64,000 bases of DNA from Limisphaerales bacterium (GTDB lineage: Bacteria > Verrucomicrobiota > Verrucomicrobiia > Limisphaerales > UBA1100): NCBI GenBank assembly GCA_014382585.1, contig JACNJL010000035.1, forward strand, positions 3,756 through 67,755, read 5' to 3'. The notes under the pieces are model-generated. The model worked only from the letters and a program-made list of their open reading frames with translations. It made no database searches and had not been told where the DNA came from. Shown piece by piece: positions 1,004 to 28,300 of this stretch (position 1 is the stretch's first letter; each line of letters begins with the position of its first letter). The translations under genes were made by a program, and so were the position numbers.

Positions 1004-1012
1004 ATACTTTTG

Positions 1013-1390: not shown

Positions 1391-1494
1391 TGGCTGTTTA
1401 TCCCTGATTATCTGTCTTATTTGAATTCTCTTGGTCTTCTGAACTTCTCTGAATCAGGATGGTGGGGTATTTTTTAATTACCGTCTAACAAGAA

Positions 1495-2262: not shown

Positions 2263-2319
2263 GCCACCTCTGAACTAATTATGGGAAACTCAAAAACTCA
2301 CGGATTCCAATTGTGAAAC

Positions 2320-2360
2320 TGGAGCGGGTGATGGGAATCGAACCCAACGAACATCGAACC
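2320..2360 (-). other. 3' fragment of a tRNA gene (T-arm, acceptor 3' strand and CCA) with no matching 5' half. Putative att-site remnant.
   Basis: The minus strand reads ...GGTTCGATGTTCGTTGGGTTCGATTCCCATCACCCGCTCCA. That gives a TTCGATT T-loop, a CCCAT/TTGGG stem, a 7-nt acceptor strand CACCCGC, a discriminator and CCA. The complementary GCGGGTG acceptor 5' strand is absent from the next 150 nt. Confidence 0.5.
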
Positions 2361-12212: not shown

Positions 12213-13064
12213 TTGATTGTCGACGTCCACAGTCACACATGGCGGCATCCGGAGGATTTCACCTCCGACCACTGCGAGCAGGCGAAAAAGGCGCGGGGGG
12301 ATGTCGAGGTGGATCTCACCGTACGCTTCGAGGATTACGCGGCGGCTTGCCCCGCGAATGAGGACGTGCACACGATCGTCTTCGGTGGCAAAGCACGGCT
12401 CAGCGGAATTTGGGTGGACGACCCATACGTGGCGGAATACGCCGCCACGCGGCCAGACAAGCTCATCGGGTTTCTTTCACTCGACCCCACGCAGTATGGC
12501 TGGCAGGACGAACTTCGACACGGCCACCAAATTCTCGGCTTGCGCGGCATCAAGCTGCTCTCAATGTACGCCGGTTTCCGGCCGGATGATACGTTACTCG
12601 ATCCGCTTTGGGAATACGCCACCGACCACGCGCTACCGGTCCTCCTCCACACGGGCACTACGTTTATCAGCCAAGCGCCGCTGGAGTGTACCCTGCCGCG
12701 CCACCTCGACGTCGTTGCCACGCGTTTCCCCAAAGTAAAAATCATTATGGCCCACCTCGGGCATCCATACGAAGGCGAATGCATCGTCGTTGCCCGCAAG
12801 CACCCCAATGTTTACGCCGACATCAGCGCGCTTTATTATCGCCCCTTCCAACTCTATCAAAGCCTGATGCTCGTACAGGAATACGGTGTGTGGCACAAAA
12901 TCCTGTTCGGCACCGACTATCCCTACACCACCGTCAACGACACCATCGCCGGCCTGCATAACCTAAACAGCATGCTCGAAGGAAGTGCCTTGCCAAGACT
13001 GTTGGAAACGGAAATTGACAAGATGATTTACCGGGACACCTTGCCCTTGTTGGGGCTTAACTGA
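12213..13064 (+). CDS. Amidohydrolase-2 family (TIM-barrel metal-dependent hydrolase, COG2159-like)
   Basis: N-terminal VDVHSHTW metal-binding motif. Internal HTGT and AHLGHP motifs. Confidence 0.65.
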   Translation: MIVDVHSHTWRHPEDFTSDHCEQAKKARGDVEVDLTVRFEDYAAACPANEDVHTIVFGGKARLSGIWVDDPYVAEYAATRPDKLIGFLSLDPTQYGWQDELRHGHQILGLRGIKLLSMYAGFRPDDTLLDPLWEYATDHALPVLLHTGTTFISQAPLECTLPRHLDVVATRFPKVKIIMAHLGHPYEGECIVVARKHPNVYADISALYYRPFQLYQSLMLVQEYGVWHKILFGTDYPYTTVNDTIAGLHNLNSMLEGSALPRLLETEIDKMIYRDTLPLLGLN

Positions 13065-13152
13065 ATCGCTAATTTCCACGGCCACAATGGGGTTGCGTCT
13101 TTTGGGCTTCGGCGCATACTGGATTTACCATCCAAACACACCCCCAATTATC

Positions 13153-16119
13153 ATGAAAAAAAATCTTCTTCCTTTTTCATTTTCACTCCTCGCATTTCTC
13201 GCCGTGTCAGCATTCGGGCAGGCGGAGAAAGCGGCTTTCGCGCTGGCAAAACAGACCCGTGGCATTGCAGTAGTCACCGGCAAAGACGAACGCGCGATGG
13301 CGCTGTATGTCCTTGAATTAGCGCAAGCGAGTGAGTTAACGATTTATTTTCAGTCGCCCGATGCTGCCACCGCACTCGCTGTGCGCAAAGCGGCGGATGG
13401 CGCGGGGTTGCTGGGGCAGCGCGTGTTTGTGGAACAAAGCCAGCTGGACCGAATTTGCCTTGGCGACAACATGGCGGACTTTGCCACCCTGTTCGGACCA
13501 GATGTGAAGGACGCTGAAATCCTACGTGTACTCCGGCCGGGCGGGCAGGCAAATGTCGGTAACCGAATCATTACCAAACCCACCTCCCAAAAGACCGATG
13601 CGTGGAGCCATCCCTTTCACGGGCCGGATAATAATCCGCAATCCACCGACGCCGTGGCGCGCGCGCCGTATCTCACACAGTTTATTCAAGCACCGAAGTT
13701 TAGCCCGATGCCGCAAATCACCGTGGCCGCCGGGGGGCGCGTGTACCGCGCCTTCGGCCACATCGCGCACAAGGCCAACCAAAACGAAATGCTCAACACC
13801 CTCATTTGCGCCAGCGCGCATAACGGCATCATCCACTGGAAACGCAAGCTCACGCCGGGCTTTATGATCCACCGCAACACGATGGTGGCTACCGACGATG
13901 CCTTGTATATGGCGGATAACGAATCGTGTAAAATCATCGACGCGCACACGGGCAAAGTACGCGAAGAGATCATCATCCCCAAAGGCGTGGGCGACGGCCC
14001 AACGTGGAAATGGATGGCGATGGTCGATGGCACGCTGTACGCATTGGTGGGTTCCAGAGAAATTTCTGTGAAGACCGTCCCCTCCGGCAAACCCGGCCTC
14101 GGCCATTGGCCGTGGGGAATGTGGGAAGGGCACGATTACAAAAACCCCAAAACCAATTTCGGTTATGGCCGCACATTCGTGGCGATTGATTTGAAGACCA
14201 AAAAAATCAAGTGGCAGCATTCGGAAAAGGAATTCATCGACGCGCGCGGCGTGTGTTTGCGCGATGGGAAAATTTATTTTTATAGCCCCAAGAAATTCCT
14301 CGCCGCGATCGGCACCAACGGCAAACCGGCTTGGCGCAACTCAGACCAAGATTTGCTCGAGGCCATTGCGCCCCACGCGCGCGCACAGCATTATATCACC
14401 GGCTACGCAACGACCGCGTACATCAAGTGCACGAAGGACGAGATTTTCTTTTCCGGCCCCACACGGCCAAATTTGGTATCCGCCGCCACGAAAGATGGCC
14501 GATTGTTGTGGCACAAGAAAGGCGGCGGCAATGTGCAACTCGTGTTGCGCGAGGAAGGAATTTTTGCCGCGGGCGCGCAGCGCAGCAATGGCGGGATGAT
14601 TCTCGAATACAAAACCGGCAAAGTGAAAAGCATGATGCCGTGGCGCCGCGCCTGCACCCGTGCGACCGGCAGCATCGACAGCGTTTTCTTCCGCGCCAGC
14701 GGCGGCACAGTGCGGATGGATGTGCCGAGCAACACCGCCCAACACATCGCGCCGATGCGGCCGCCGTGTCAGGACGGCGTCATCATTTCCGACGGCAACC
14801 TTTTCTGGGGCCCGTGGATGTGCGGCTGCCAACTTTCGCTCTACGGCCACATCAGCCTCACCGCCGCCGGCAATCAACTCGCCAGCCCCGGCGAAGCGCG
14901 CCCGCAATTCGAGTCCAGCAAAGGAGATCTCAAAAACGTTCGCCCACTTGCCGCCCACAAAAATGATTGGTCAGTTTACCAAGGGAATAACCGCCGCACG
15001 TCCACCACCACACTGCCTTTGCCCGCCGCGTTGAAGGAGCGGTGGAGTTTCCCCGCCCCCACCGCCGCGCTGCCCACCGCGCCGGTTACCGCGGGTGGAT
15101 TAACCTTCATTGCCAACCGCAGCGGCGTGATCCGCGCGATGAATTCCAACGGTAAACTGATGTGGGAAACATTCACCGGCGGCGCGATTTATTTCCCGCC
15201 CGCCGTGGCAAAGGGCCGCGTGTATTCCGGCAGCGCGGACGGACGCGTGTACTGCCACGAAGCCGCCACGGGCCGCAAGTTGTGGAGCTATCGTGTGGCA
15301 CCGACGGAGCGCTGGATCGCGGTGTTCGGTAAACTCATTTCCACTTGGCCCGTCGCCGGCGGGGTGCTGGTGGAAGATGGAACGGTCTACGCCTCGGCCG
15401 GCATCGCGCATTACGACGGCACGCACGTGGTCGCGCTGGACGCCATCACCGGCAATCTCAAGTGGCACAATGACAGCAGCGGGTCGCTCAACAAAAAAGT
15501 GAACAGCGGCGTGAGTATGCAGGGTAGTTTATTTATGGAAAACGGCAAGCTCTGTTTCCTCGGCGGCGGCGTGCAGGAAGTCGCGCAGTTCAATCTCGAC
15601 GACGGCAAGTGCGTGAATACGCCGGTAAACAATCCGCAATCCGGATATCGCACCGCGTTTTATCCGTACTACCCCGAGTACGGCAACTACGTCTCGCTCG
15701 CGCACACACTGGCCGATGGACGCGAACTGGTGTTCGACGCCAGCTACGAGGGCAACAAATTCAATTACCTCCACGCATTGGCCGCGCTGCCTCCCGGCGC
15801 GCCGAAGCTCACCAAAGAACGCGCCCGCTGGAACGCCCGCCGTGGCGCGCCCCAACGCAAAGTGCTGTGGCGCGACGCCCGCGGCCGCCGCTTCGCCGGA
15901 TTCATCGTCGGCAAAACCCGCCTCCTCGGCGTCGGCGATCAAGGCGCGGAGAAGGACCCCTTCATCACCCTCATCAACCTCAAAACCGGCAATGACGAAT
16001 GGACCGCGAAACTCCCCGCGCAACCGATCAAAGGCGGCGCAAGCATCGACAGCGCCGGAAGGATTTGGGTGACGTTGGTGGATGGGCGGGTGATGTGTTT
16101 TGAAAAGGGATTAGAATGA
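13153..16119 (+). CDS. Large secreted PQQ-like beta-propeller repeat protein with an N-terminal non-propeller domain
   Basis: Signal peptide MKKNLLPFSFSLLAFLAVSAFG. Many propeller-blade repeats (…DAHTGKVREE…, …DLKTKKIKWQ…, …ATGRKLWSYR…, …AITGNLKWHN…). The 966-aa product ends …VMCFEKGLE. Confidence 0.7.
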   Translation: MKKNLLPFSFSLLAFLAVSAFGQAEKAAFALAKQTRGIAVVTGKDERAMALYVLELAQASELTIYFQSPDAATALAVRKAADGAGLLGQRVFVEQSQLDRICLGDNMADFATLFGPDVKDAEILRVLRPGGQANVGNRIITKPTSQKTDAWSHPFHGPDNNPQSTDAVARAPYLTQFIQAPKFSPMPQITVAAGGRVYRAFGHIAHKANQNEMLNTLICASAHNGIIHWKRKLTPGFMIHRNTMVATDDALYMADNESCKIIDAHTGKVREEIIIPKGVGDGPTWKWMAMVDGTLYALVGSREISVKTVPSGKPGLGHWPWGMWEGHDYKNPKTNFGYGRTFVAIDLKTKKIKWQHSEKEFIDARGVCLRDGKIYFYSPKKFLAAIGTNGKPAWRNSDQDLLEAIAPHARAQHYITGYATTAYIKCTKDEIFFSGPTRPNLVSAATKDGRLLWHKKGGGNVQLVLREEGIFAAGAQRSNGGMILEYKTGKVKSMMPWRRACTRATGSIDSVFFRASGGTVRMDVPSNTAQHIAPMRPPCQDGVIISDGNLFWGPWMCGCQLSLYGHISLTAAGNQLASPGEARPQFESSKGDLKNVRPLAAHKNDWSVYQGNNRRTSTTTLPLPAALKERWSFPAPTAALPTAPVTAGGLTFIANRSGVIRAMNSNGKLMWETFTGGAIYFPPAVAKGRVYSGSADGRVYCHEAATGRKLWSYRVAPTERWIAVFGKLISTWPVAGGVLVEDGTVYASAGIAHYDGTHVVALDAITGNLKWHNDSSGSLNKKVNSGVSMQGSLFMENGKLCFLGGGVQEVAQFNLDDGKCVNTPVNNPQSGYRTAFYPYYPEYGNYVSLAHTLADGRELVFDASYEGNKFNYLHALAALPPGAPKLTKERARWNARRGAPQRKVLWRDARGRRFAGFIVGKTRLLGVGDQGAEKDPFITLINLKTGNDEWTAKLPAQPIKGGASIDSAGRIWVTLVDGRVMCFEKGLE
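15895..16106. repeat. Left copy of an imperfect direct repeat, about 206 bp (3' coding end of the PQQ gene). The other copy is at 17624-17826.
   Basis: ttcatcgtcggcaaa…aatgacgaatggaccgc…gatgggcgggtgatgtgttttgaaaa recurs at 17630-17825. The copies differ by a 9-bp indel and scattered substitutions in the first third, and are nearly identical thereafter. Confidence 0.85.
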
Positions 16120-16304
16120 TCTGAGTCAAAACTCATCAATCCGCTACTGATAGTCCAATTGAAAAACATACCTGACACTTCGGGGCTGAATGTCTCGCCG
16201 CTAATTGGGAATTCTAATGAAGTGTCCATTGCCCCAGCAACACAACCGAAAAAGAATATGAAAAACCGCTTGACATTCGAGCGGCGTACGTCAGTTTTTC
16301 CCCA

Positions 16305-17210
16305 ATGTTATCAAAGCAAAGACATATCAAACTGCTAATCATATCAATCGCTCTCTGTCAGGTTTTCAGCGGCAACCTGAGAGCTGAAAATGATTTTTTT
16401 GTTTTAGAATACGAGGAGGAAATCAACGATGACACGGGTTTAGTTGAGTATTTTGAAAGCGGGTTTTCATTAACACAGGGATTTTATGAACAAGCGGGGC
16501 TGATTAACAAATTTGGCGATTATATTGAAACGGGGCAATCTTCAGAAGGAGGCCAATACATTTCCTGGACACCACAACCCACTAGTCCTGAATTTTTTGA
16601 GACCTCCAATTTTACAAACACCATAAATCATATCAATTGGTTTAATGATAAGTCACTTGAAGAACAATTGATTGAAGGAATGAACGGCTACAATGACTTG
16701 GATAATTTTTTCATGTCCATTCTCATATTCAATAAAGTAGATTCGATTACCATAAATTTCTACCCGAAAGCATTAATAATTGAAGATGACCCCCTAAAAA
16801 ATGACCCAGTATTACATCAACAGGAAATCGAGATTACTCTCAAAAATAATAATAACGAACTGGAGTTCCTCCTTTCCCTCGATAAGCAAAAGGTTGACGC
16901 TGATGTTGTGGGGTTGCGGTTTTATTTAACAACAAAAATAAACGTTCGCGATTTACGCTTTAACGAAAGGGAGGATCTTAGCCATGAAGTAGAATTCGGT
17001 AAAGTTAGAACAGGATTCGGGAATGCTGTCTATGAGCCAGGCACCCAATATCGTTATAAACAACATTGGGCAGACGAGAAGTTTCCAAACAATGACAATA
17101 TCAACAGATTTGTATTTGGCGGCAGAATAAATGAACTTGATTTATTGTTTTGGACTCATTTTGAACTGAATGTTTTTTTAGTAAATTGGATAGAATCATG
17201 GATCGAATAA
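16305..17210 (+). CDS. Hypothetical secreted protein encoded in the AT-rich insert
   Basis: ATG start, N-terminal hydrophobic leader, Asn/Asp/Glu/Phe-rich composition. The sequence is strongly AT-rich relative to its flanks. Confidence 0.45.
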   Translation: MLSKQRHIKLLIISIALCQVFSGNLRAENDFFVLEYEEEINDDTGLVEYFESGFSLTQGFYEQAGLINKFGDYIETGQSSEGGQYISWTPQPTSPEFFETSNFTNTINHINWFNDKSLEEQLIEGMNGYNDLDNFFMSILIFNKVDSITINFYPKALIIEDDPLKNDPVLHQQEIEITLKNNNNELEFLLSLDKQKVDADVVGLRFYLTTKINVRDLRFNEREDLSHEVEFGKVRTGFGNAVYEPGTQYRYKQHWADEKFPNNDNINRFVFGGRINELDLLFWTHFELNVFLVNWIESWIE

Positions 17211-17599
17211 TCATTATTTGCTGCCTGTCATCAGGGTTAACACTAGGCTGCTTGAACATAGGCAATCAAGTGCATAAGCCTGAAGAGTTTTCAACAAAAC
17301 CCATCAAAAATGATTTTTCCGAGGTTGATGCGGAATTAGAAAGAAAGGTTCGCAACTTAGCTGAAGCCATCTACTTTCCTCGAGAGCTTAAAGATTTAGA
17401 TTTGGAAACAGCGACTGTCGAGGAAATTTATTTGGCTCAAAGATTTCCGATGCTTAGGGACAGCATGACAAACACAATGATAGAGAGTTTTCGGACCGAC
17501 AAATTTGTGACAGGCAGAGTTAGCAAGGCGGATTTAAACCATGTTATACAAAGATTGAAAGATGCCGAAAAAGCAGCTTTTGCGAAATGGGGGAAGTAG
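17198..17599 (+). CDS. Hypothetical small lipoprotein encoded in the AT-rich insert
   Basis: ATG at 17198 (the track's 17186 start is TTG). MDRIIIICCLSSGLTLGC is a lipobox-like leader. AT-rich. Confidence 0.4.
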   Translation: MDRIIIICCLSSGLTLGCLNIGNQVHKPEEFSTKPIKNDFSEVDAELERKVRNLAEAIYFPRELKDLDLETATVEEIYLAQRFPMLRDSMTNTMIESFRTDKFVTGRVSKADLNHVIQRLKDAEKAAFAKWGK

Positions 17600-17629
17600 T
17601 GAAACTAACCGGCGATTCCTAACGCCGCG

Positions 17630-17826
17630 TTCATCGTCGGCAAATCCAGCCTTCTCGGCGTCGGCGATGAAGGCGCGGAAAAGGAACCCTTCATCAACCT
17701 CAATACCGGCAATGACGAATGGACCGCCAAACTCCCCGCCCAACCGATCAAAGGCGGCGCAAGCATCGACAGCGCCGGAAGGATTTGGGTGACGTTGGTG
17801 GATGGGCGGGTGATGTGTTTTGAAAA
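17630..17826 (+). pseudogene. Start-less duplicated C-terminal fragment (about 65 codons) of the PQQ-propeller gene; right copy of the direct repeat
   Basis: Translates in the original frame to FIVGKSSLLGVGDEGAEKEPFINLNTGNDEWTAKLPAQPIKGGASIDSAGRIWVTLVDGRVMCFENAK*. It is preceded by in-frame TAG, TGA and TAA stops and has no start codon. Confidence 0.7.
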
Positions 17827-17837
17827 CGCGAAATAAC

Positions 17838-19280
17838 TTAGGCCAAGATCTCTTTCACCACCCGTGTGGGATGCGTGTGAGTTAGTCGCTCGTGGAGTCC
17901 ATTGCGATCGAAGAAAAGTTTTTCATGGTTCATGCCGAGCTGGTGGAGGATGGTGGCATGCCAATCTTGAATGCTCACACGGTCTTTTACTGCCCCAAAA
18001 CCGATGTCATCGGTTTCGCCATACACAGTGCCGCCTTTCACGCCGCCACCAGCCATCCAGTTAGTAAATCCGCTCGGGCCGTGGTCGCGACCGGCCTTGG
18101 CATATTCACCCTGAGCCATCGGCAACCGACCGAATTCGCCTCCCCACAGAATAAGCACATCGTCGAGCAGTCCACGTTGCCGCAGATCACGCAGCAATCC
18201 GGCAGTGGGAAGATCGCTTTGTTTACAGGCAGCCGGCAAAGAAGTCTTGATGTTGTTGTGGTTATCCCACATTTGGCCTTTTGGATAAATTTGGATTAAT
18301 CGTACGCCTCGCTCCACCAACCGTCGCGCCATAAGGCAACGCTTGCCAAAATTATCCGTTTCCTTCCCGCCGATGCCGTACTGCTTACGCGTACTCTCCG
18401 TTTCTGTTGAAACATCCAGTGCTTCAGTAGCCTGCACCTGCATTCGTGCAGCCATTTGATAATTGGCAATGCGCGAATCAAGCACATGCTGGTTAGGGCG
18501 CTCTGCCTTGTGAATTCGATCAAGCGCGTTGATCAGGTTGTGCTTGGCAGCACTCACACCCGCGGGCTCTTTAAAATCCGGCTTGAGATGCAGCATTGGG
18601 GTGCCTTCACTCTTAATGGACGTGCCTTGAAACAGCGGTGGCAAATATCCGCTCATCCAGTTTTCCACGCCGTTTACTGGCAGTCGGTTTTGAGGATCAG
18701 CCAGCACTACGTAGGCGGGGAGATTCTGGTTCACGCTGCCGAGGCCGTATGTGATCCAAGATCCCATGGTCGGGTGACCGGGAAAGGTCTCACCACTTTG
18801 CCATTTATAACAAGCCGGCTCGTGATTTTCGTGCACGTTAAACATGGAGCGAATGACAGCAATATGATCCATTTCCTTTGCTGTCTCCGGCAGCAATTCG
18901 CTCACCCACGCGCCGCTTTGCCCATATTGTGCAAACTTCCAATGGCTACGCATGAGATGACCTTTCATGCTGCGACCAGCAGGCGCGACCTTGGTAAATT
19001 CCTCCGGCGCATCTTTACCGTGCAATGTTTCCAGTGCCGGCTTGGGATCAAACAAATCCACTTGCGACGGCCCACCCTGCATGCAGAATTGAATAACCGC
19101 CTTGGCGCGGGGCGCAAAGTGCGGCTGGCGTGGCTGGGTATCCGTAGGGAGAGCTGATTTGTGGTGCCGCTCCGTTCCATACAGATCACGAGTCAATAGT
19201 GAGGCCAGCGCCGCACCATAAAGACCGTCGCCCACGCGATCAAAAAATGTGCGGCGATTGATTTCGATCGAGTTCATCAT
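17838..19280 (-). CDS. DUF1501 (sulfatase-like) protein with Tat signal
   Basis: RRTFFDRVGDGLYGAALASLL leader, CMQGGPSQVDLFDPKP, GGEFGRLP…GRDHG. Confidence 0.8.
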   Translation of the reverse strand: MMNSIEINRRTFFDRVGDGLYGAALASLLTRDLYGTERHHKSALPTDTQPRQPHFAPRAKAVIQFCMQGGPSQVDLFDPKPALETLHGKDAPEEFTKVAPAGRSMKGHLMRSHWKFAQYGQSGAWVSELLPETAKEMDHIAVIRSMFNVHENHEPACYKWQSGETFPGHPTMGSWITYGLGSVNQNLPAYVVLADPQNRLPVNGVENWMSGYLPPLFQGTSIKSEGTPMLHLKPDFKEPAGVSAAKHNLINALDRIHKAERPNQHVLDSRIANYQMAARMQVQATEALDVSTETESTRKQYGIGGKETDNFGKRCLMARRLVERGVRLIQIYPKGQMWDNHNNIKTSLPAACKQSDLPTAGLLRDLRQRGLLDDVLILWGGEFGRLPMAQGEYAKAGRDHGPSGFTNWMAGGGVKGGTVYGETDDIGFGAVKDRVSIQDWHATILHQLGMNHEKLFFDRNGLHERLTHTHPTRVVKEILA

Positions 19281-21658
19281 TAGTCAACGTACAAAAATGC
19301 GGCGGAATTAAACAACGCGTGGCACACCGCCGACAGTGCTTTGTTGCGTTGGCCGGTTTCTTTTGCCGCCACGAATTGACGCTCCAGTTCCTGCATCGAT
19401 TTCGTCATTCCTAGCAGCTCTTTCTCTGACGGCGGTCGATTAATGATTTTGCGATACGCCAACCTGGTGGCCGCCTCGATGGTTTTGGCTTCTTTCTGAA
19501 TCTCCGAAGCCAGCTTGCGCGACAGCTCGTAAATCACTTTGTCATGCAATAAAAACAGTGGCTGCTGCACCACAGTGGAGTTGATACGGGTGACACAATT
19601 GGGGTTCATCGCCGGCAGATCAAACGTCTCCAACATTGTCATCATGTGTATGCGGCGTTGGCGAATATAAACACTACGGCGCCATCCCCCTTTCCCCGGC
19701 TTGCCCGTGACATAACCTCTTTCACGCACCTGCACATCATCAGGCTTGCCCCCCAAACGGATATTCAATTGACCGGTGATAGCAAGCAGTCCGTCGTGCA
19801 ATTCCTCCGCATCCAGCCGCCGCATACGCATGCGCGAAAGCCAGATGTTGTCGGGATCCTTTATCGCGGTAGTTTTGGCATTAAAAGAAGATTGCCGATA
19901 AGCGGTGCTGGTACAGATAAGGCGATGCAGATGCTTGGTGCTCCATTTGTTTTCGACCAACTCGATGGCCAGCCAGTCGAGCAACTCAGGATGCGTAGGC
20001 ACACTACCGAGTTTGCCAAAGTTATCCAGGCTCGCGACAATTCCCCGGCCGAAATGATGTTTCCAAATGCGATTCACCCACACCCGGGAGGTGAGCGGAT
20101 GATCCGGATTGGTCATCCACCGCGCCAGCGCCAGCCGGTTACCCGTCTTGTTTTTGCCCACCACTTTAGCAGGCTGGAAGGGGGTTTCTGAAAACACCCG
20201 TGGCAATGCCGGCCCTACCCGCGCCCCGGGGCTCCCGGGATTGCCGCGCAGATTCACATAAGTCGGGGAAGATTCACCTCGATCCCACAGCGCGCGAATG
20301 AGCGGCATAGTTTTCTTCTTTGCTTTCAGGTCGTCTATTTTCTTCTTCAACTCCTTGCGTTCCATTCCCTTTGCGGATGTGAAATTCTTCTCTAGTGGAT
20401 CCAACTCCTCTTTCAACTTCGCGTTGTAAGCCTCAATGGGTTTGCGTTCTTCAGGCAACGCCACCGGCAAATGCCGGCGTGTACTGCCTGCCCATTGATT
20501 TCTAAATGGCTGTGGTGTCAGCCAGTTGTACTCATCATATGAAGCTTTAAAGATGGCTGCGAAGGAATAGTAATCTCGCTGACTGATTGGGTCGTACTTG
20601 TGATCGTGGCAACGCGCACATTTCATGGTCAACCCCATCACGCCACCGGCGAGAATTTGCAATTCATCACCGATGACTTCAATTCGGTCCTCCACGCGGT
20701 TTACGGGATTAGCACTGGTGCCATCGGGGGCCATACGAAGGAATCCTGTGGCGACTAATTTCTCGATGACGTTTTCATCGATCGCCTCGGGGTCCGAATA
20801 ATCCACCAACTCATCACCGGCGATTTGCTCCACTAGAAAATCATTGTACGGCTTGTCGGCATTAAAAGAGTTGATGACGTAGTCGCGATATTTCCACGCG
20901 TAATCCCGAATCATGTCTGCATTGCGTTTGCCTTCGGAATCTGAATAGCCGGCTAGATCCAGCCAATGCCGCCCCCAACGCACCCCGTACGCGGGCGAAG
21001 CCAGCAGCCGATCTACAACTTTCATATAAGCCGTTGGGCTAGTGTCTTCTTCGAACGCCACCATCTCCGAAGGCGTGGGCGGAAGGCCAGTGAGGTCGTA
21101 GGTGACCCGCCGCAGCAACGTGTGCTTTGATGCTTCGGGCGAGTATCCCAGTTTTTGAATGGCCAGTTTTCTTAGCAGAAAAACATCGATAGGATTGCGA
21201 ATCTTGGATTGGGGGATGGCAACTGTTGGAATGGTCGGCCGTTTCGGGGGTTGAAACGCCCAATGATTGCGAGCTCCGGGTTTTAGCTTCACCGGCTTCA
21301 GCGTTTGCCATACTTCCGGTGCCCCAACACTGATCCAATCGCGCAGGGTTTTTAACTCGCTTGCACCCATGCGCTCAATACCGGCCATGCTGATGTTTTT
21401 ATCTGGCGGGCATTCACGCGAAACAATGCGCTGAATCATTTTACTTTCCGCCGGTTTCCCGGAAACAAATGCACCGCCAGCAAGCATGGTTGACTTGGTG
21501 CGCAGATCGAGCCCGCCCTCGCGTGCGTCCTGCCCATGGCACATCACACACCGCCGCAGCAACACCGGAATGGCGTCGTGCTGCGTGACCTTGGGTACGG
21601 CGGTTGCGGAAAGGGACAACAACACAACCGGCAGCCAATGATGGATTCGCAAATTCAT
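19280..21658 (-). CDS. PSCyt1/DUF1549/DUF1553 multi-domain protein (planctomycete cytochrome-c-like N-terminal domain)
   Basis: Signal peptide. CVMCHGQDAREGGLDL (PSCyt-type CxxCH). …DLTGLPPTPSEMVAFEED… (DUF1549). …KCARCHDHKYDP… (DUF1553). One nucleotide is shared between its stop and the start of the downstream DUF1501 gene. Confidence 0.8.
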   Translation of the reverse strand: MNLRIHHWLPVVLLSLSATAVPKVTQHDAIPVLLRRCVMCHGQDAREGGLDLRTKSTMLAGGAFVSGKPAESKMIQRIVSRECPPDKNISMAGIERMGASELKTLRDWISVGAPEVWQTLKPVKLKPGARNHWAFQPPKRPTIPTVAIPQSKIRNPIDVFLLRKLAIQKLGYSPEASKHTLLRRVTYDLTGLPPTPSEMVAFEEDTSPTAYMKVVDRLLASPAYGVRWGRHWLDLAGYSDSEGKRNADMIRDYAWKYRDYVINSFNADKPYNDFLVEQIAGDELVDYSDPEAIDENVIEKLVATGFLRMAPDGTSANPVNRVEDRIEVIGDELQILAGGVMGLTMKCARCHDHKYDPISQRDYYSFAAIFKASYDEYNWLTPQPFRNQWAGSTRRHLPVALPEERKPIEAYNAKLKEELDPLEKNFTSAKGMERKELKKKIDDLKAKKKTMPLIRALWDRGESSPTYVNLRGNPGSPGARVGPALPRVFSETPFQPAKVVGKNKTGNRLALARWMTNPDHPLTSRVWVNRIWKHHFGRGIVASLDNFGKLGSVPTHPELLDWLAIELVENKWSTKHLHRLICTSTAYRQSSFNAKTTAIKDPDNIWLSRMRMRRLDAEELHDGLLAITGQLNIRLGGKPDDVQVRERGYVTGKPGKGGWRRSVYIRQRRIHMMTMLETFDLPAMNPNCVTRINSTVVQQPLFLLHDKVIYELSRKLASEIQKEAKTIEAATRLAYRKIINRPPSEKELLGMTKSMQELERQFVAAKETGQRNKALSAVCHALFNSAAFLYVD

Positions 21659-21724: not shown

Positions 21725-23632
21725 TCAGGACAAACTGGTCGGTGCCTTCACAGTTGGCTCGGGTTCTGGCGAGCCACTCCAGGCCCATTTAGCGGCGCAA
21801 GCGATAAGGAGAAGGATCGCGGCCATGATAATAAGCAAGCTGCCCCAGCGAACTTGGAGGCCGGATTTGTCCGGATTGAGCACGGGCTGGAAATTGCGGC
21901 GGCTGGGGGGAATGACGAGCAACCAACCGCTCTCAGTTTTTTTGCCTTCAGTGAGGCAAATGCCCAACGCGAACAGACCAGACAGAATGCCCAACACAAT
22001 CCAAAATGGTTGATGGGAAGAATGCGGCCAAACAAACCAATCACAAATGATGGCGACCACGGAAGGGAACAATAAAATCTCAACCCATTGGCGCAGCAAA
22101 CGTGGGAAGCTTCGCAGTGCGGCCAAAGCCACGGTGACACCAAGTCCGGTGAGGGGGGCGATCCACCAGAGGTGCAGCCAATGAAAATGCCAGAAATGAA
22201 TCGCACCCGCGGCGGCGAGCAGCGTGGCGGCGGTGAGCAGCGGCACGTTGTAAAAGGGCAGTGTGCGAAATTGGCCGGGGCGCGTGCGAGGCAGCGGTTT
22301 GATATTTTTTTCCTTGGGGATGAGCTTGGCACCATTCCAAAAAAGTGCCACCACCATTCCGATGCCGAGCGACCACTTGAGCCAAAGATCCCACCAGTAA
22401 AAAATGGGATCCACGAATGACACGGAAACAACGGCGCCGAAAATCAATCCCATCAAAATGATGTGCCAGATTTTGCGCAAGGCAAAACGCGCGGGGGCTG
22501 AGTGTGTGGTGGAGGGTTGCACGGTGCGGTCTAGCGCGGGCATTAGGTTTATCCCCGCTGCGCCGAGAGCCATCACGAGCAGCCCAGCGATGCCCGTGCC
22601 CGCGAGTGACCACGGCGCTGCTGACCACGCGGAATAGGCCACTACTTCTCCGCCGGGCAATTCGAATTCCCAGCGCGTGGCATCCCAAACCAACACCGCC
22701 GCTCCCGTGGCGGCGGCGACGAGCACGAAGCCGCCTTGGGCGGCGAGGAAATGGCGGAAGCCGTGCCAGAAATCGATGTAGCCAGCTTTAGCAGCAGCTT
22801 GTTTTTCTTCGGATGTGGGGAACATTGAATCTTCCACGCGGCGCATTTGCAAACTGCCAAGGCCGAGCGCACAGCCAATGGAGAGGACAACCATCAAACG
22901 CCCGGTGAATCCGTCGGCGGGTTTGAATGTGTCCGCTGTTTCTGCCGGAGGTGTGACCGGTGACTTCGGCGTAACAGGCGGAATTGGGGTAATGATTTTG
23001 GGCGTCGTGGGGCCTTTGGCGATCTCGTCCGGCTTGGGTTTAGCGGATTGAGATTGAACGATGGCGGCGATCCATAAGCCGAGCACCACCAACGTAGCCA
23101 TACCGAGGCCGGTTCCGATGACGATTTTTTTGTGCTGCTTAATCCAATTCAAAAAAGTGGTCACGGTGGCAACTTCCGGCGTGGATTTGCGTTCGCGTTT
23201 GAAAACAAAACCGAAACTGATAATGAGCGTGCCCAACCCCAACACAAACAGCCAACCGACCGTGCCGTTTGTGACTCCGCCGCCGGCTTTTTGGGCAATG
23301 AGGACGATTCCCATCACAAAGGCCAACAGCGCGGAGGCGAGTGCGGTGGTGAAGAATGGCCGGGCTTTGATCCATGCCCACGTGGCGGAGGGGGCACGTT
23401 CTGGCTCCAGCTGCGGCTCGGGTTGAACAATGACCGGCTCGGGTTTGGCTACGGGGATTTCCTCCGCCACGGGCTGGCGGTTTTTCTCGAGCTGCGCCTC
23501 GAGAGCGGCGCGGAGTTTGTCGAGATCCACCGAGCCATCGGTGGGCAGGCGCAGCCGCAACTTCACATCACCCGCGCCCCTCGCTTTGGAACGGGCCGCT
23601 GTGTCACGAGGTTGATGTCGGGGTTTGGCCAC
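21725..23632 (-). CDS. Large polytopic membrane protein of unknown function, with a roughly 90-aa charged N-terminal cytoplasmic segment and a Pro/Thr/Val-rich linker
   Basis: At least 12 hydrophobic segments. Linker PTTPKIITPIPPVTPKSPVTPP. Its start lies 4 bp after the stop of the upstream PLD-family gene. Confidence 0.5.
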   Translation of the reverse strand: MAKPRHQPRDTAARSKARGAGDVKLRLRLPTDGSVDLDKLRAALEAQLEKNRQPVAEEIPVAKPEPVIVQPEPQLEPERAPSATWAWIKARPFFTTALASALLAFVMGIVLIAQKAGGGVTNGTVGWLFVLGLGTLIISFGFVFKRERKSTPEVATVTTFLNWIKQHKKIVIGTGLGMATLVVLGLWIAAIVQSQSAKPKPDEIAKGPTTPKIITPIPPVTPKSPVTPPAETADTFKPADGFTGRLMVVLSIGCALGLGSLQMRRVEDSMFPTSEEKQAAAKAGYIDFWHGFRHFLAAQGGFVLVAAATGAAVLVWDATRWEFELPGGEVVAYSAWSAAPWSLAGTGIAGLLVMALGAAGINLMPALDRTVQPSTTHSAPARFALRKIWHIILMGLIFGAVVSVSFVDPIFYWWDLWLKWSLGIGMVVALFWNGAKLIPKEKNIKPLPRTRPGQFRTLPFYNVPLLTAATLLAAAGAIHFWHFHWLHLWWIAPLTGLGVTVALAALRSFPRLLRQWVEILLFPSVVAIICDWFVWPHSSHQPFWIVLGILSGLFALGICLTEGKKTESGWLLVIPPSRRNFQPVLNPDKSGLQVRWGSLLIIMAAILLLIACAAKWAWSGSPEPEPTVKAPTSLS

Positions 23633-23635
23633 AGG

Positions 23636-24340
23636 TCAGCTAAAGTTGCGCCAGAGTTTGTCAAACATTCGGGTAAACGACTTGATTAAATCGGCATCGC
23701 CGGTGATGAGAAAATTTTCGTCGTTGTGCAACGAAGCGGAGCGGGTCCAGTTGTAACTGCCGGTGAGCAGTTTGGATTTGTCGAAGATGGCGAATTTGTG
23801 GTGCATGTGATGTTCGGACCGATCCATACGCACGGCGATGCCGGCGCGCTCGAGGCGCCTGATGTCCGAGCCGGCGTCCATCGATTTGTCGTCATCACTG
23901 ATGACGCGGATTTGCACGCGGCGGCGATGCGCTTTTTCAATGGCGCCGGCAATTCGATTGTCGGTGATGGTGAACACGCAAATATCCACCGAAGCGCGGA
24001 CTTGCGCCAAGCAATCGATGATTTTGCCAACGCAATCATCGTCGGGGCTGAAGAAGGCGGCGGCCGCATCGACTTTGCCGGTGTTGGGGATATTCTCGGC
24101 GGGGTGCAGGGTTTTGACGGTATTTTCAAGCCACTCCAAAACCTGATGGCGCTGACCGGCATCGGCTTTAGCCAGCGCCTCGCGCGCGGCATCGAAAGCC
24201 ATACTTCGATAAAGTGCGCGGCGCTGTTCGCTGCCGTTGATGGAATCGGTGAGCGTGCGGACCTCGTTGCGTTCGCTGCGGGATAGCTGGAAATCTTCCA
24301 GCGTCGATTGGAAGAGGGCTTTGACCTCGTGATCTTTCAT
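23636..24340 (-). CDS. Phospholipase-D-family (single HKD, Nuc-like) nuclease/phosphodiesterase with a roughly 90-aa N-terminal helical extension
   Basis: HHKFAIFDKSKLLTGSYNWTRSA is the H-x-K-x4-D-x6-G-S-x-N HKD signature. The upstream FFSPDDD…VFTIT…GVkVRVI-like layout matches the PLD/Nuc fold. Confidence 0.7.
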   Translation of the reverse strand: MKDHEVKALFQSTLEDFQLSRSERNEVRTLTDSINGSEQRRALYRSMAFDAAREALAKADAGQRHQVLEWLENTVKTLHPAENIPNTGKVDAAAAFFSPDDDCVGKIIDCLAQVRASVDICVFTITDNRIAGAIEKAHRRRVQIRVISDDDKSMDAGSDIRRLERAGIAVRMDRSEHHMHHKFAIFDKSKLLTGSYNWTRSASLHNDENFLITGDADLIKSFTRMFDKLWRNFS

Positions 24341-24513
24341 AGCAGATATTTTCCCCCGTTTTGTAAATTAGGGGCGTTTGGCGCTGGGAAGGATACATTA
24401 CCGCGATCGGCGGATTTCGCCAACGAAAAAGGTTTCCCGATGGGTGGGTTTTTTGTAGTATTCACTCACCCACGCGACGACTCAAACCGTCAACCACAAC
24501 GAAAGGCAATCTT

Positions 24514-25326
24514 ATGGCCAAGTTTATTAAAAATCTGAAATCAAAAGTCGAACACTACAAAACCAAGGCGGAGGAAATTCGCGCGATGGTTGAAGAGGGA
24601 GCGGAAACGATTCGCGAAATTCGCAGCGACGTGGAAAGCACAGTGGACGATTTGAAAGCGGACAGCGAAGAAAAGATGATGGAGAGCCTGGAAAAAATTC
24701 AGGACGCCGAGCGGGTTTTCAAAGAGGCCGGTTACAAACTGCAGGCGGTGCGGTTGGAGATGGGGTTTAACCCCAAGGTGGTTTCGGTGCTGCGGCGCGA
24801 ATCGGCAATCAACGCGCGCAAACAGGAACGCCTACTCCAACAGCACGCGGACAACAAGCTCTTGAGCAGTATGCTGAATTCGCTTTTCAAGGCCGAGGCG
24901 TTGGAGGACAAAGTGCATCTTCGCCGGTTGACGTTTCACGAAGTGCAAATCGAGGTGGGCGTGGTGCCGGCAGTACACGTGGTTTGGGAGGACAAAAACA
25001 GCGTGACACTGACCCCCACTGCGGCGGCGGAAAAAGAACCCGCCTACAGCAGCCCGTTCACCAGCAGCAGTTCATTTACAAGCGGCAGTTCATTTACAAG
25101 CGGCAGCTCGTCATTCCCGCGCAGTTCGTTTGCGGAAGATGTCGAGGTTGAAGAAGAAACCACGGACCTTGAGCCAACACCTCAGCCTGAACCCGCCGAG
25201 GCCCCGGTGGAAGTCGCCGCGGTGGAGGGAGATTTTGCTGCGCCGACGGTGTCTGCCTCCGCGCGGGATCCAGAGGATGACAAGTGGACAAGCTTCCCGG
25301 ACATCTCATTTCCAGGGAGTAAGTAG
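24514..25326 (+). CDS. Hypothetical protein with an N-terminal coiled-coil, an internal Ser/Phe/Thr tandem repeat and an acidic Pro/Glu-rich C-terminus
   Basis: ATG start with a GC-typical codon pattern. The SSSFTSGSSFTSGSS repeat is encoded by tandem agttcatttacaagcggc units. Convergent with the giant AAA+ gene. Confidence 0.45.
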   Translation: MAKFIKNLKSKVEHYKTKAEEIRAMVEEGAETIREIRSDVESTVDDLKADSEEKMMESLEKIQDAERVFKEAGYKLQAVRLEMGFNPKVVSVLRRESAINARKQERLLQQHADNKLLSSMLNSLFKAEALEDKVHLRRLTFHEVQIEVGVVPAVHVVWEDKNSVTLTPTAAAEKEPAYSSPFTSSSSFTSGSSFTSGSSSFPRSSFAEDVEVEEETTDLEPTPQPEPAEAPVEVAAVEGDFAAPTVSASARDPEDDKWTSFPDISFPGSK

Positions 25327-25357
25327 TCGGGAGGGACGGGGGACGGGCATCGTACCC

Positions 25358-28300
25358 TTACCCTCCTTTGCTATCTGCGGGCGGTTCCTGTTGCTGCGCT
25401 TCCTGCAATTGAGCGAGGAGTTGTTGGATGAGGGCGTCACTGTCCTGCACCATATCCTGGCTGACATCGACAACCACTTCAGTGGGCTGAGCGGCGTCGA
25501 GGCGTTCACGCAGTTCGCGATGGCGTTCCTGATAGTTGGCGAAGAGCACGCCAATCTTCGACAGCGCCGCCTGCATTTGGTTGGCCTGCGTTTGGGATTG
25601 TGAATCGCGGATGGTATCAGCGAGCGTGACGTTGCTTTGCTCAATGAATTCGGCCAACGCCATTTGGCGGTCGGCGAGGGCGGATTGGCTTTCCTGTGTG
25701 GCGGCGGCTGCGGTGCTGGATTGCTCCAGATATTTCTCAAATGCGCCGCGCAAGGCGGTGAGATTTTCGTTGGTTGCGTCGCTCGGCACTGTGCCCTCGG
25801 TGGGGGTGGGTGCGGCGGTTTGCTGGCCGGAAAGGTGCTGGGAAATCGTATCACGAAGGGCATCGAGGCTTTCGTTCATCCCGCCCAGATCGAGCTGGGT
25901 GGTCCGGGGTTTAGAAAGCTCTTCTTTTAGCGTGCCTTGGATGGCATCAAGACCACCGGTGAAGAGTGAGAGCTGGCTGACCACGCGGCTGACAGGATCG
26001 CCTTGGTCGCCGCCCTGCAGGAATTGATTCCGGCCATAGGTTTTTTTGATATCCTCCCAACGCGCTTCCTCGTCTTCGGTCATCACCCCGATGAGCTGCT
26101 TGAATTTCAGGAAGTTTGCCTCTGCGCCAGTGGTGAGTGTTTGGCTTTCGCCTTTGTAATGGTCGAGCACGAGATCCATCAGCTCCTGATCATTCATAAT
26201 CGCCAACACCTTTTCGGCGAGGCGATTCATATTGCGATAGGAGCCCTGCATCTTGAAGGCCGGTTCGGTGCGGAATTCATCCGCTTGCCCGGCGCTCTCA
26301 ATGTACAACTGATTTACTTTCAAAACCACATCGCGCAGTACGGTGAGTTTTTTGAGGACGTTGAGTAATTCCTCGGTTTCATTCGCGGAATAACTTCCCT
26401 GTAACTCGATGCCCTCGCGTTGGCCGGTCTCGGCCATCCGAATAAACGCTTGAATATCTTTTTGTGCTGCCTTGGCGAGCGGTTGCAAAACGGGATTGGA
26501 GGTGATGGCATTCTCAATGTAGCTGCCGTTGAACGCTTCCTCGCGCCCCTTCATATCGTCGCCGAGATTGTATGTGTCAGCACGGTTGGCGAGCATATCG
26601 GGGATGCGGAATTTCTCGCCGCTCTCGGTGTACGGGTTGCCGGCCATCACGACGACGACGCGGCGACCGCGCATATCGTAGGTTTTGGGTTGACCGCGCC
26701 AGACACCCTCGATTTTGCGCTGGGCGTCACAGAGCGAAATAAATTTCTGCAAAAACTCCGGGTTGCAGTGCTGAATGTCATCCAAGTAAATCATCACGTT
26801 ATCGCCCATCTCCAGTGCGAGATTGAGTTTATTGACTTCCGCGCGCGCGCCGGCGTTGGGGGCATCCTCGGGATCCAGCGACCCCACTTCGTGGCCCAGC
26901 GCCGGCCCGTTGATTTTCATAAAAATCAGGCCCATTCGATTGGCGAGATATTCCATCAACGTGGTTTTGCCATAACCGGGCGGAGAGATGAGTAGCAGCA
27001 AGCCCATCAAATCCGTGCGCTTGCCTTCGCCGGTGACGCCAATTTGCTTGGCAAGATTGTCGCCCACGATCGGCAGGTATACAGTGTCCACCAATTGATT
27101 GCGCACGAAGGAGGACAGCACGCGCGGCTCAAATTCGTGCAGGCGCAACACTTCTTTTTCGTCTTCGATGAGTTTTTGTTTCAACTCCTGATACTGCTCA
27201 AAACGCGGCACGCTTTCGCGTGCGAAGCGGCCGAGCTTCTCCTGAAACACAAGATAATCAAAATCGTAACTACCTTCCTGCACCGCATCGTGCGCGCCCT
27301 GCAGACCGGTGATGGCCTGAGCGGTAGCAGCTTTCACCACGGCTTGTTTGTGATGATGGCCGCAGAAAATCAACGCAGCGACTTCCTCGAGATATTTATT
27401 TTCGCCGTTGCGCGTGAGCAGGAAGCCGCGCACCCAATCGCGCACGAGCTGATAATGACTGTGCGGATTGGCCTTGAGCGGTTTCTGCGCTTTGTCAAAT
27501 TCGGCTTCGCTGCCTTTCTTGACGAGATGCCGCTCAAATTCAGTGAGCAATTGATCCGCTTCCTGACTGACGGCCCAATCTTTGCCATTCGTAATTTCGT
27601 AAAATAAATATTCGCCCGCGGGCGCGGCATCTTCTTCGGGGAACAAAACGGTGTCCGTGACAAAACCCGCCACCAATTCCTGCAGCGCCACGATATATTC
27701 GCGCTGCGTGGGATCGCCGGGGAACAGCTCGTTACGTTTGGCGAAGCCTTCGAGTTTGGCGGCCCAAAGTTTGCGCGTGTCCTCGGGACAAAAGTGATGC
27801 CAATAAACCGCGCCGCACGCCCGTACGCGGGGATGATAGCGCGCCAGCTGCAGGGCGGCGTGGGTGTTGAGCAGCGCGGCGAGAATCTTGGCCGCGTCCT
27901 GATCGTGAATGCCTTTGGTGTACGCCTCGGCGTAGCGGTCGCCCATGAAATCCTGCACGAGTTTGAGGCGGTCGGCGGCCTTCATCGCGGCGACTTCGGC
28001 GAGACGTTCGCCGCTTTCGTGCTCGAGTTTCTGCCAAAGCAAATAGGCGAGATATTCGGCGCGGTAAATTTCGCGGTCTTCGCTGATAACCTGTTGCTCC
28101 CACACTTCGCGCGTGGCGAGGAAAGCCTCGTCCTCGATGGGGTCGAAATACTGGGTGCCGGTGAGGTGCAAATTCTGCTCGTCGCCCCGGCGCACGATGG
28201 TGAGGTCCAGCGGTTGGGTGTTTACGGCGAATTTGTGTTTGCCGAACTGGATAACGTTTTGGCCGTCGACGTAGAGTTCTTTTTTGTCTTTGAGCTGGCG

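What the first reader, a model, noticed from the sequence alone, without database searches (positions are those of the whole stretch)
15895..17826. AT-rich 1.5 kb insert bracketed by a roughly 200 bp diverged duplication of a gene's 3' end
A strongly AT-rich segment (16120-17620) carrying two orphan secreted or lipoprotein genes sits immediately after the stop of the 966-aa PQQ-propeller gene. It is followed by a second, start-less copy of that gene's last 65 codons. The copies are near-identical over the last 130 bp, but the first third has a 9-bp indel and several substitutions. This is the footprint of a foreign-DNA insertion into or next to the gene's 3' end with duplication of target sequence, and it is far longer than a normal transposon target-site duplication. 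Alternatively it is recombination-mediated cassette capture, with later gene conversion homogenising part of the repeat.
Basis: seen in the sequence. Interest (0 to 1): 0.55.

Follow-up and report, generated by a model that had tools for sequence, protein, structure and literature searches.

The report
Foreign gene islet flanked by duplicated gene-end
A 1.5 kb piece of foreign, AT-rich DNA carrying two genes with no known relatives has been spliced onto the end of a conserved gene in one marine Verrucomicrobia lineage, leaving a working gene end on one side and a decaying copy on the other; this is a familiar footprint of gene acquisition, unusual here only because the insert is tiny and has no recombinase of its own.

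Summary
Window 15894-16106 (the last 71 codons of the PQQ-propeller gene) recurs at 17623-17826 at 90.6% identity (E 1e-83). The first 80 nt carry 8 substitutions and a 9-bp indel, the last 133 nt carry 3 substitutions, and the final 86 nt are identical. Between the copies lie 1.5 kb at 33-42% GC, against 55-65% in the flanks, holding two ORFs with no homologue in any database searched.

At least nine related Verrucomicrobia contigs have the empty site, with the PQQ gene abutting the convergent DUF1501 gene across 11-19 nt. The left part of copy A and the right part and tail of copy B are ancestral. The left part of copy B and the tail of copy A (KGLE* instead of NAK*) are new. That reciprocal pattern fits a single-crossover (Campbell-type) insertion of DNA carrying its own copy of the gene end, as with e14 in E. 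coli icd/icdC.

The insert and the 64 kb window contain no integrase, transposase or tRNA gene, so the recombinase is unknown. Sister lineages show other rearrangements with end points at the same ~210-nt segment. My verdict is a real, lineage-specific islet insertion of a known kind and moderate interest.

The parts
13087..16119 (+). PQQ/BamB-like beta-propeller gene (1010 aa from the first ATG; 988 aa in the NCBI annotation). This is the target gene. It is intact and now ends ...MCFEKGLE*.
   Evidence: Pfam PQQ_2 at 7e-27. ORF list. All relatives end ...MCFENAK*.
15894..16106 (+). Repeat copy A (attL-like), the functional 3' end of the gene. Its left part is identical to relative L006. It has one private change, at 16020.
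16107..16119 (+). New last four codons and stop (KGLE*), supplied by the inserted DNA in place of the ancestral NAK*.
   Evidence: Alignments. C-termini.
16107..17622 (+). Inserted AT-rich DNA (1516 bp, GC about 0.37), absent from every relative.
   Evidence: Composition. No blastn match in any related locus. No match in plasmids, phages or IMG/VR.
16305..17210 (+). ORFan 1, 301 aa, with a signal-peptide-like N-terminus. GC at codon positions 1/2/3 is 0.45/0.27/0.37, which looks like coding sequence.
   Evidence: Only itself found among 5.8e9 proteins and 1.84e9 representatives. No hit in Pfam, PHROGs, NCBIfam or PADLOC. AlphaFold2 pLDDT 32. Codon GC.
17198..17599 (+). ORFan 2, 133 aa, lipoprotein-like (…GLTLGC), overlapping ORFan 1 by 13 nt as in an operon.
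   Evidence: Only itself found. No family hits below E 0.01. pLDDT 39.
17623..17835 (+). Repeat copy B (attR-like), the displaced, start-less 3' fragment of the PQQ gene. It comprises the repeat at 17623-17826 and the ancestral tail NAK* at 17827-17835. It carries 7 private substitutions and a 9-bp slippage deletion, all in its left 91 nt.
17610..17627 (.). Short inverted repeat CGGCG-N8-CGCCG straddling the junction between the insert and copy B. Its significance is unknown.
   Evidence: reported as a terminator-like stem on the minus strand, with no convincing T-run.
17838..19280 (-). DUF1501 gene, the ancestral convergent neighbour of the PQQ gene. It marks the right side of the empty site.
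   Evidence: Pfam 1e-133. Adjacency in relatives.
19280..21658 (-). PSCyt/PSD1 (DUF1553-type) gene, the partner of DUF1501. The pair is itself variable among sister lineages.

Best explanation
After this lineage split from its ~90%-identical sister lineages, a piece of foreign AT-rich DNA was inserted at the 3' end of the PQQ-propeller gene. It carries a two-gene operon for a secreted protein and a lipoprotein, neither with any known relative. I infer a single reciprocal crossover (Campbell-type integration) between the chromosomal gene end and a ~210-nt copy of that gene end on the incoming, presumably circular, DNA.

The crossover lay between positions 15984 and 16020. The working gene (copy A) is therefore chromosomal on its left and insert-derived on its right. 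The insert supplies the last ~30-40 codons and a new KGLE* terminus. The displaced fragment (copy B) is insert-derived on its left and chromosomal on its right, so it keeps the ancestral NAK* stop and the junction to DUF1501. Copy B is untranslated and decaying.

What is shown: the insertion, its polarity, the ancestral and novel ends, and the ORFan cargo. What is inferred: the circular intermediate and the single crossover.

The enzyme is not identified. It could be a site-specific integrase acting in trans, or one lost from a once larger element, which would make this a decayed e14/icd-type island. It could also be RecA acting on the 210-nt homology.
For: 1. Empty site. At least nine related contigs have PQQ and DUF1501 tail to tail across 11-19 nt, against 1725 nt in the window.
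2. The tail of copy B and the sequence downstream (GAAAACGCGAAATAACTTAGGCCAAGATCTC) match the native gene end of the relatives. The tail of copy A (AAGGGATTAGAATGA) is unique. All relatives' proteins end MCFENAK.
3. Copy A from 15860 to 16002 is identical to L006. All seven substitutions private to copy B, and its deletion, lie at or left of 15984. The only substitution private to copy A lies at 16020.
4. The left part of copy B keeps the clade signature GAAGGCGCGG and two ancestral bases (15940, 15957) where copy A and L006 are derived. Copy B is therefore not a copy of the present copy A, but it comes from the same clade.
5. The insert has 37% GC against 57-59% in the host and strictly ORFan genes.
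6. The same arrangement occurs in several independent assemblies.
7. A documented analogue exists. Prophage e14 is flanked by icd, which extends into the prophage, and by the icdC C-terminal pseudogene (PMC13626634). More generally, islands regenerate the target and displace a fragment (PMC4383910, PMC7192596).
8. The same genome has a second AT-rich ORFan island ending in a tRNA 3' fragment, so att-type acquisition does occur here.
Against: The insert has no integrase, excisionase, transposase or replication gene. Its ~1.5 kb is filled by the two ORFs. None of these genes appears in the rest of the 64 kb window.

The insert was found in no other genomic context and in no virus or plasmid collection, so mobility is not shown.

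The reciprocal pattern rests on few sites: 7 against 1-2. The substitution asymmetry is only p = 0.018.

Both copies share a lineage-private base (16067 G, Leu to Trp). Either the incoming copy came from the same lineage, or gene conversion homogenised the right-hand part. The second case weakens the crossover inference.

The putative incoming copy is itself unevenly diverged, at about 8% on its left and 1-2% on its right. This needs an extra assumption: selection acts only on the translated right part, or conversion has occurred.
Confidence: 0.55

Rival explanations
1. In-situ long target duplication. The foreign fragment had no homology to the gene. It was joined by illegitimate or microhomology end-joining between two positions ~206 nt apart, left end at 16106 and right end at about 15901. 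This could happen across a staggered break, a collapsed fork or an unequal sister-chromatid exchange. The two copies would have started identical. Copy B then decayed, and gene conversion or junction-proximal mutagenesis produced the uneven divergence.
For: No recombinase is present. Both copies share the private base at 16067 and an identical last 86 nt. In L007/L085 a second copy of the same segment sits at a junction made through a CGGATT microhomology, so illegitimate joins at this segment do happen in the clade. The 9-bp indel site is a slippage hot spot, since P0015 has a +9 bp ITI insertion there.
Against: Copy B keeps ancestral bases at 15940 and 15957 where copy A is derived and shares the change with L006. 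This needs a later allele replacement in copy A. Seven private substitutions in 91 nt of copy B against none in its remaining 122 nt is hard to obtain by uniform neutral decay. The mechanism is rarely documented in bacteria.
Confidence: 0.2
2. Import of a ready-made arrangement. The whole block (PQQ 3' end, insert, copy B and perhaps DUF1501-PSD) was built in another strain. It then entered this lineage by homologous, or homology-facilitated illegitimate, recombination. On this view the window only inherits the footprint.
For: There is a phylogenetic break exactly at the PQQ stop codon. DUF1501 is 91-96% identical to L087, but the PQQ gene is only 82-90% identical to L087 and about 90% to L006/L007. 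The neighbourhood is a mosaic of small gene indels, including the amidohydrolase at 12213-13064 and the DUF1501-PSD pair.
Against: Copy B is not L087-like (82%). It belongs to the window/L006/L007 clade. This rival does not explain how the duplication arose and only moves the event to a donor. No donor with the insert exists in any collection searched.
Confidence: 0.1
3. Ancient native arrangement. The two copies and the genes between them are old, and the relatives lost them repeatedly by recombination between the repeats. Such a loss restores a perfect empty site.
For: Pop-out between such repeats is plausible. L006 lacks DUF1501-PSD, and its gene tail equals the tail of the second repeat in L007.
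Against: At least nine contigs at several phylogenetic depths (64-97% C-terminal identity) have the empty site. The insert is 20 points lower in GC than the host and unameliorated. Its proteins have no relative even in sister lineages.
Confidence: 0.05
4. Assembly artefact. An empty-site chromosome plus a separate ~1.7 kb circle or another locus sharing the 86-nt identical stretch was threaded together wrongly by the assemblers.
For: Logan k=31 contigs break exactly 30 nt into the repeat on both sides. The insert forms its own 1694-bp unitig. That graph is equally compatible with an excised circle plus an empty site.
Against: At least six contigs of 50-200 kb from different samples, and the NCBI MAG, carry the identical integrated arrangement. 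The exact repeat is only 86 nt, which is shorter than an ordinary read. The two copies differ at 11 sites that phase the junctions.
Confidence: 0.05

Closest known systems
e14 cryptic prophage (and phage 21) integrated in the E. coli icd gene, with the icdC pseudogene
   Same: The element sits at the 3' end of a conserved protein-coding gene. The working gene runs into the element, which supplies a slightly different C-terminus. The displaced C-terminal fragment remains as a start-less pseudogene at the far end. The repeats are in the 100-200 nt range with scattered substitutions. Recombination between them gives a chimeric but functional gene (PMC13626634, citing Hill et al. 1989).
   Different: e14 is 15 kb, encodes its own integrase and excisionase, and excises on SOS induction. 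Here the insert is 1.5 kb, has only two ORFan cargo genes and no recombinase, and shows no sign of excision or of copies elsewhere.
tRNA/tmRNA-targeting genomic islands (Islander/TIGER-type integrative genetic elements) and marine tycheposons
   Same: The footprint is a regenerated target plus a displaced fragment marking the island ends. The cargo is AT-rich and of unknown function. Degenerate remnants and extra partial target copies from older events are reported (PMC4383910, PMC7192596, bioRxiv 10.1101/2020.12.28.424599). A tRNA-fragment-bounded AT-rich island lies in the same window (2320-2346).
   Different: The target is a protein-coding gene, not a tRNA gene. There is no integrase. The size is below the 2 kb lower limit those pipelines use for an element.
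CIMEs (cis-mobilisable elements: att-flanked, integrase-less derivatives of ICEs, as described for Streptococcus thermophilus at the 3' end of fda; from my own knowledge)
   Same: A small segment bounded by direct att-like repeats at the 3' end of a housekeeping gene, lacking any recombination module, possibly mobilisable in trans.
   Different: CIME repeats are short (about 27 bp) core sites recognised by a known ICE integrase. Here the repeats are about 210 nt and no cognate element is known.
Campbell-type single-crossover integration by homologous recombination, and homology-facilitated illegitimate recombination (from my own knowledge)
   Same: The insert is flanked by a direct duplication of exactly the homologous segment, with reciprocal hybrid copies. 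L007's second copy is joined through a 6-nt microhomology.
   Different: These are known mainly from laboratory suicide-vector integration and transformation experiments. A natural case needs a donor that had captured a 210-nt host fragment, and none was found.

Membership tests
Integrative genetic element at a gene 3' end (e14/icd type) | The element is absent from related genomes at an otherwise conserved site (uninterrupted attB). | tested here: met
   At least nine related contigs have PQQ and DUF1501 11-19 nt apart.
Integrative genetic element at a gene 3' end (e14/icd type) | Direct repeats consisting of a regenerated target gene end and a displaced fragment, with the element supplying the new terminus. 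| tested here: met
   Copy A with the new KGLE* tail, and copy B with the ancestral NAK* tail.
Integrative genetic element at a gene 3' end (e14/icd type) | An integrase (tyrosine or serine recombinase) gene inside the element, usually next to one end. | tested here: not met
   The two ORFs fill the insert and hit no family. No recombinase domain appears in the window by Pfam.
Integrative genetic element at a gene 3' end (e14/icd type) | Evidence of mobility: the same element in other genomes or sites, or excision products. | tested here: not met
   The insert proteins occur only in this context (7 contigs). There is no hit in IMG/VR, phages, plasmids or 5.8e9 proteins. Excision cannot be tested without reads.
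Transposon or insertion sequence | A transposase gene, terminal inverted repeats and a short (2-15 bp) target-site duplication. | tested here: not met
   No transposase. No terminal inverted repeats at the insert ends. The duplication is 204-213 bp.
Integron gene cassette | An IntI integrase with attI nearby, and an attC recombination site at the cassette end. | tested here: not met
   No integrase domain in the window. The only inverted repeat at a junction is a 5-bp stem. No attC model was available, so attC itself was not formally tested.
Polymorphic-toxin C-terminal displacement (Rhs/CdiA orphan modules) | The orphan fragment carries a different C-terminal domain from the main gene, followed by an immunity gene. 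| tested here: not met
   The orphan fragment encodes the same C-terminus as the main gene (86% aa identity). The gene is a PQQ/BamB-like propeller.
CIME-like integrase-less att-flanked remnant | Flanked by att-type direct repeats at a conserved gene end, and lacking recombination or transfer genes. | tested here: met
CIME-like integrase-less att-flanked remnant | Derives from, or is mobilised by, a cognate integrase-bearing element that uses the same site. | not testable with these tools
   Only 64 kb of the genome is available. No element using this site was found in 78 genome loci and 6 metagenome loci.

The most novel reading that the evidence does not exclude
The last ~210 nt of this PQQ-propeller gene may act as a recurrent, recombinase-independent docking module for downstream gene cassettes in this Verrucomicrobia clade. 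Three roughly equidistant sister lineages show three different outcomes, with end points within a few nucleotides of each other (left about 15897-15901, right 16105-16106).

1. In the window, ORFan cassette insertion between two copies.
2. In L007/L085, a second copy on the far side of the DUF1501-PSD pair.
3. In L006, loss of that pair, with a gene tail equal to the tail of L007's second copy.

In addition, the ancestry of the DUF1501-PSD alleles changes exactly at the PQQ stop codon. If this is true, small circles that each carry one copy of the gene end plus cargo would shuttle genes between strains by ordinary homologous recombination, like an integron without an integrase.
Probability: 0.2. 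Interest if true: 0.6.

Novelty: new member of a known kind. Interest (0 to 1): 0.33.

Why it matters
This is a clean natural example, in an uncultured marine Verrucomicrobia lineage, of how very small packets of ORFan genes enter a genome without disrupting the target gene. The empty site, both junctions and the polarity of the crossover can all be read from the sequence.

The lack of any recombinase, together with recurrent rearrangements at the same 210-nt segment in sister lineages, hints that homology carried by the incoming DNA may be enough for such additions. That bears on how flexible genes turn over in bacteria that lack obvious mobile-element machinery.

The practical value is modest. 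The finding flags copy B as a pseudogene fragment, the KGLE terminus as insert-derived, and the two ORFans as recent arrivals that encode envelope or secreted proteins.

Tried and rejected
1. Function of the cargo. Both ORFans were searched against 5.8e9 proteins, and the 301-aa ORFan also against 1.84e9 representatives with full HMMER. They were also searched against Pfam, PHROGs, NCBIfam and PADLOC, and the 301-aa ORFan or the insert DNA against IMG/VR, phages and plasmids. Nothing matched except the proteins themselves. AlphaFold2 single-sequence models were too poor (pLDDT 32 and 39), so no fold search was run.

2. RNA target. There is no tRNA or tmRNA gene in the window and no credible Rfam match in 15500-18200. 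This is therefore not a tRNA-type attachment site.

3. Promoters and terminators in the insert occur at chance level.

4. More variants at the site. A metagenome scan with the C-terminal peptide gave only six loci, all empty-site or L007-type. No further orphan copies were found in 78 genome loci.

5. I tested whether the diverged left third of copy B comes from the L087-like lineage that matches the adjacent DUF1501 gene. This was rejected, because copy B carries the window/L006/L007 clade signature.

6. I tested whether copy A is a recent import from an L006-like donor. The identity profile rises only mildly towards the 3' end and does so for L007 too, so there is no clear breakpoint.

7. 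The left boundary of the second AT-rich island (window 1-2320) lies outside the window and at contig ends in all assemblies.

8. Toxin-type C-terminal displacement, transposon and integron readings were rejected, as set out in the membership table.

Full report
**Observation**

Window 15894-16106 is the last 71 codons of the PQQ/BamB-like beta-propeller gene (13087-16119, Pfam PQQ_2 at 7e-27). It is repeated at 17623-17826. The two copies are 90.6% identical (blastn E 1e-83) and the window holds no third copy.

The differences are unevenly spread. The first 80 nt carry eight substitutions and one 9-bp indel. The last 133 nt carry three substitutions, and the final 86 nt are identical. Fisher's test on the substitutions gives p = 0.018.

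Copy B has no start codon. It follows three in-frame stops and ends with its own tail, NAK*.

The 1516 bp between the copies has 33-42% GC, against 55-65% on either side. It is filled by two overlapping ORFs. The first is 301 aa with a signal-peptide-like N-terminus. The second is 133 aa with an LTLGC lipobox-like motif. Their codon-position GC looks like coding sequence.

**Is the arrangement real?**

The identical arrangement occurs in ENA contigs of 111-130 kb, in the NCBI MAG of a Verrucomicrobia subdivision 3 bacterium, and in Logan assemblies from several run series.

Logan k=31 contigs stop exactly 30 nt inside the repeat. The insert forms its own 1694-bp unitig in 10 samples. This is the expected behaviour of a true two-copy repeat. 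Taken alone, it would also fit an excised circle plus an empty site. The long contigs and the 11 phasing differences argue for the integrated form. Only reads can settle the point.

**Empty site**

A genome scan with the PQQ protein returned 78 loci, and a metagenome scan with its C-terminus returned six more. In L007/L085, L008, L056, L013, L086, L087, L017, L010 and L064 the PQQ gene is followed after 11-19 nt by the convergent DUF1501 gene. In the window the gap is 1725 nt.

No relative has any part of the insert. All relatives' proteins end ...MCFENAK. The window's protein ends ...MCFEKGLE.

**Polarity of the copies**

Alignment with the relatives shows the following.

- The tail of copy B and the sequence after it are the ancestral gene end and the junction to DUF1501.
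- The tail of copy A is new sequence continuous with the insert.
- Copy A is identical to L006 from before the repeat up to 16002.
- All seven substitutions private to copy B, and its 9-bp deletion, lie at or left of 15984.
- The only substitution private to copy A is at 16020.
- The left part of copy B still carries the clade-specific GAAGGCGCGG. It also keeps ancestral bases at 15940 and 15957, where copy A and L006 are derived.
- Both copies share one lineage-private base, 16067 G (Leu to Trp).

A single reciprocal crossover predicts this pattern. The chromosomal gene end would have recombined with a diverged copy of it on the incoming DNA, somewhere between 15984 and 16020. The result is an attL-like working hybrid and an attR-like displaced hybrid.

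The 9-bp indel lies in a slippage-prone TTCATCAC/TCATCA repeat. One relative has a +9 bp insertion at the same spot.

**Cargo and machinery**

Neither ORF has a homologue. The only hits among 5.8e9 proteins (both ORFs) and among 1.84e9 representatives (the 301-aa ORF) were the proteins themselves. No family matched in Pfam, PHROGs, NCBIfam or PADLOC. Viral contigs, phages and plasmids gave nothing. Single-sequence AlphaFold2 models were unusable.

The insert contains no integrase, transposase or replication gene. Precomputed and fresh Pfam annotation of the rest of the window shows none either. There is no tRNA gene and no Rfam match at the locus.

**Mechanism**

The best-supported reading is a Campbell-type insertion, with the insert regenerating the target gene's end. 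This is the architecture documented for e14 in E. coli icd/icdC (PMC13626634). In general terms it is the pattern of islands that restore their target and leave a displaced fragment (PMC4383910, PMC7192596).

The event falls short of membership in that family. It has no integrase, it is below the usual size of an element, and no mobility is seen. It is therefore either a decayed or satellite, CIME-like remnant, or a RecA-mediated integration of DNA that had captured a 210-nt host fragment.

The main rival is an in-situ 206-nt duplication made during illegitimate insertion, followed by decay and partial gene conversion. That rival explains the shared private base. It does not easily explain the ancestral bases kept by copy B or the clustering of copy B's private changes.

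**Context in sister lineages**

Three roughly equidistant sister lineages (about 90% nt identity) each have a different structure at this segment.

- L007/L085 carry a second partial copy (R2, L007 11688-11856) on the far side of the DUF1501-PSD pair. It is joined through a CGGATT microhomology inside the 3' end of the next gene, and it has a 41-nt internal deletion.
- L006 lacks DUF1501-PSD. Its PQQ gene ends with the tail that follows R2 (SPKAQ*). This fits recombination between the two copies, or an L006-type donor for L007.

The novel sequence starts within 1 nt of the same position (after TTTTGAAA) in the window and in L006/L007. The left ends of copy B and R2 fall within about 5 nt of each other.

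In the window, ancestry also changes exactly at the PQQ stop. DUF1501 is 91-96% identical to L087, while the PQQ gene is only 82-90% identical to L087.

Together these observations suggest that the gene end is a recurrent recombination anchor. I rate that reading at about 0.2.

**Verdict**

It is a lineage-specific insertion of a tiny foreign ORFan operon at a gene's 3' end, with a 204-213-bp duplicated gene end. It is a new member of a known kind of footprint. Its interest is moderate and comes from the missing recombinase and the recurrent use of the segment.

Noticed in passing
window 1-2346: A second AT-rich island (GC 0.40-0.44) has three ORFs without Pfam hits, one of them lipoprotein-like (1495-2262). 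Its right edge carries a tRNA 3'-end fragment on the minus strand (2320-2346, T-arm plus acceptor strand plus CCA). ARAGORN finds no whole tRNA, so this looks like a displaced att fragment of an integrase-type island. Most assemblies break here.
   Followed up: partly
L007 11688-11856 (also L085 14151-14319): A second, partial copy of the PQQ gene's 3' end lies beyond the DUF1501-PSD pair. It sits inside the 3' end of the next gene, is joined at a CGGATT microhomology, has a 41-nt internal deletion and is followed by a 185-nt unique tail.
   Followed up: partly
L006 13010-13199: This sister genome lacks the whole DUF1501-PSD pair. Its PQQ gene ends with the tail that follows the second copy in L007 (…MCFESPKAQ*). 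This fits a deletion by recombination between the two copies.
   Followed up: partly
window 17826-18900 versus L087: Ancestry changes exactly at the PQQ stop codon. DUF1501 is 91-96% identical to L087, but the PQQ gene is only 82-90% identical to it. L006/L007 are the closest for the PQQ gene, while L007 is only 74-88% identical for DUF1501.
   Followed up: partly
window 12213-13064: The amidohydrolase gene just upstream of the PQQ gene is present only in the window, L007 and L085. It is absent in L006, L056 and L087, so it is another small gene indel in the same neighbourhood.
   Followed up: no
window 15961-15979: The TTCATCACC/CTCATCAACC stretch is a slippage hot spot. Copy B lacks 9 bp there, and a related protein (P0015) has 9 extra bp (ITI duplicated).
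   Followed up: yes
window 21725-30862: A minus-strand cluster holds a 635-aa protein with no Pfam hit, a PLDc_2 protein (234 aa) and a 1828-1834-aa DUF3686/DUF7902/AAA protein, with a 270-aa ORF on the plus strand between them. This may be a defence-type module. It was not examined.
   Followed up: no
window 17610-17627: A short inverted repeat, CGGCG-N8-CGCCG, lies exactly across the junction between the insert and copy B. Its right arm is the first 5 nt of the repeat.
   Followed up: no
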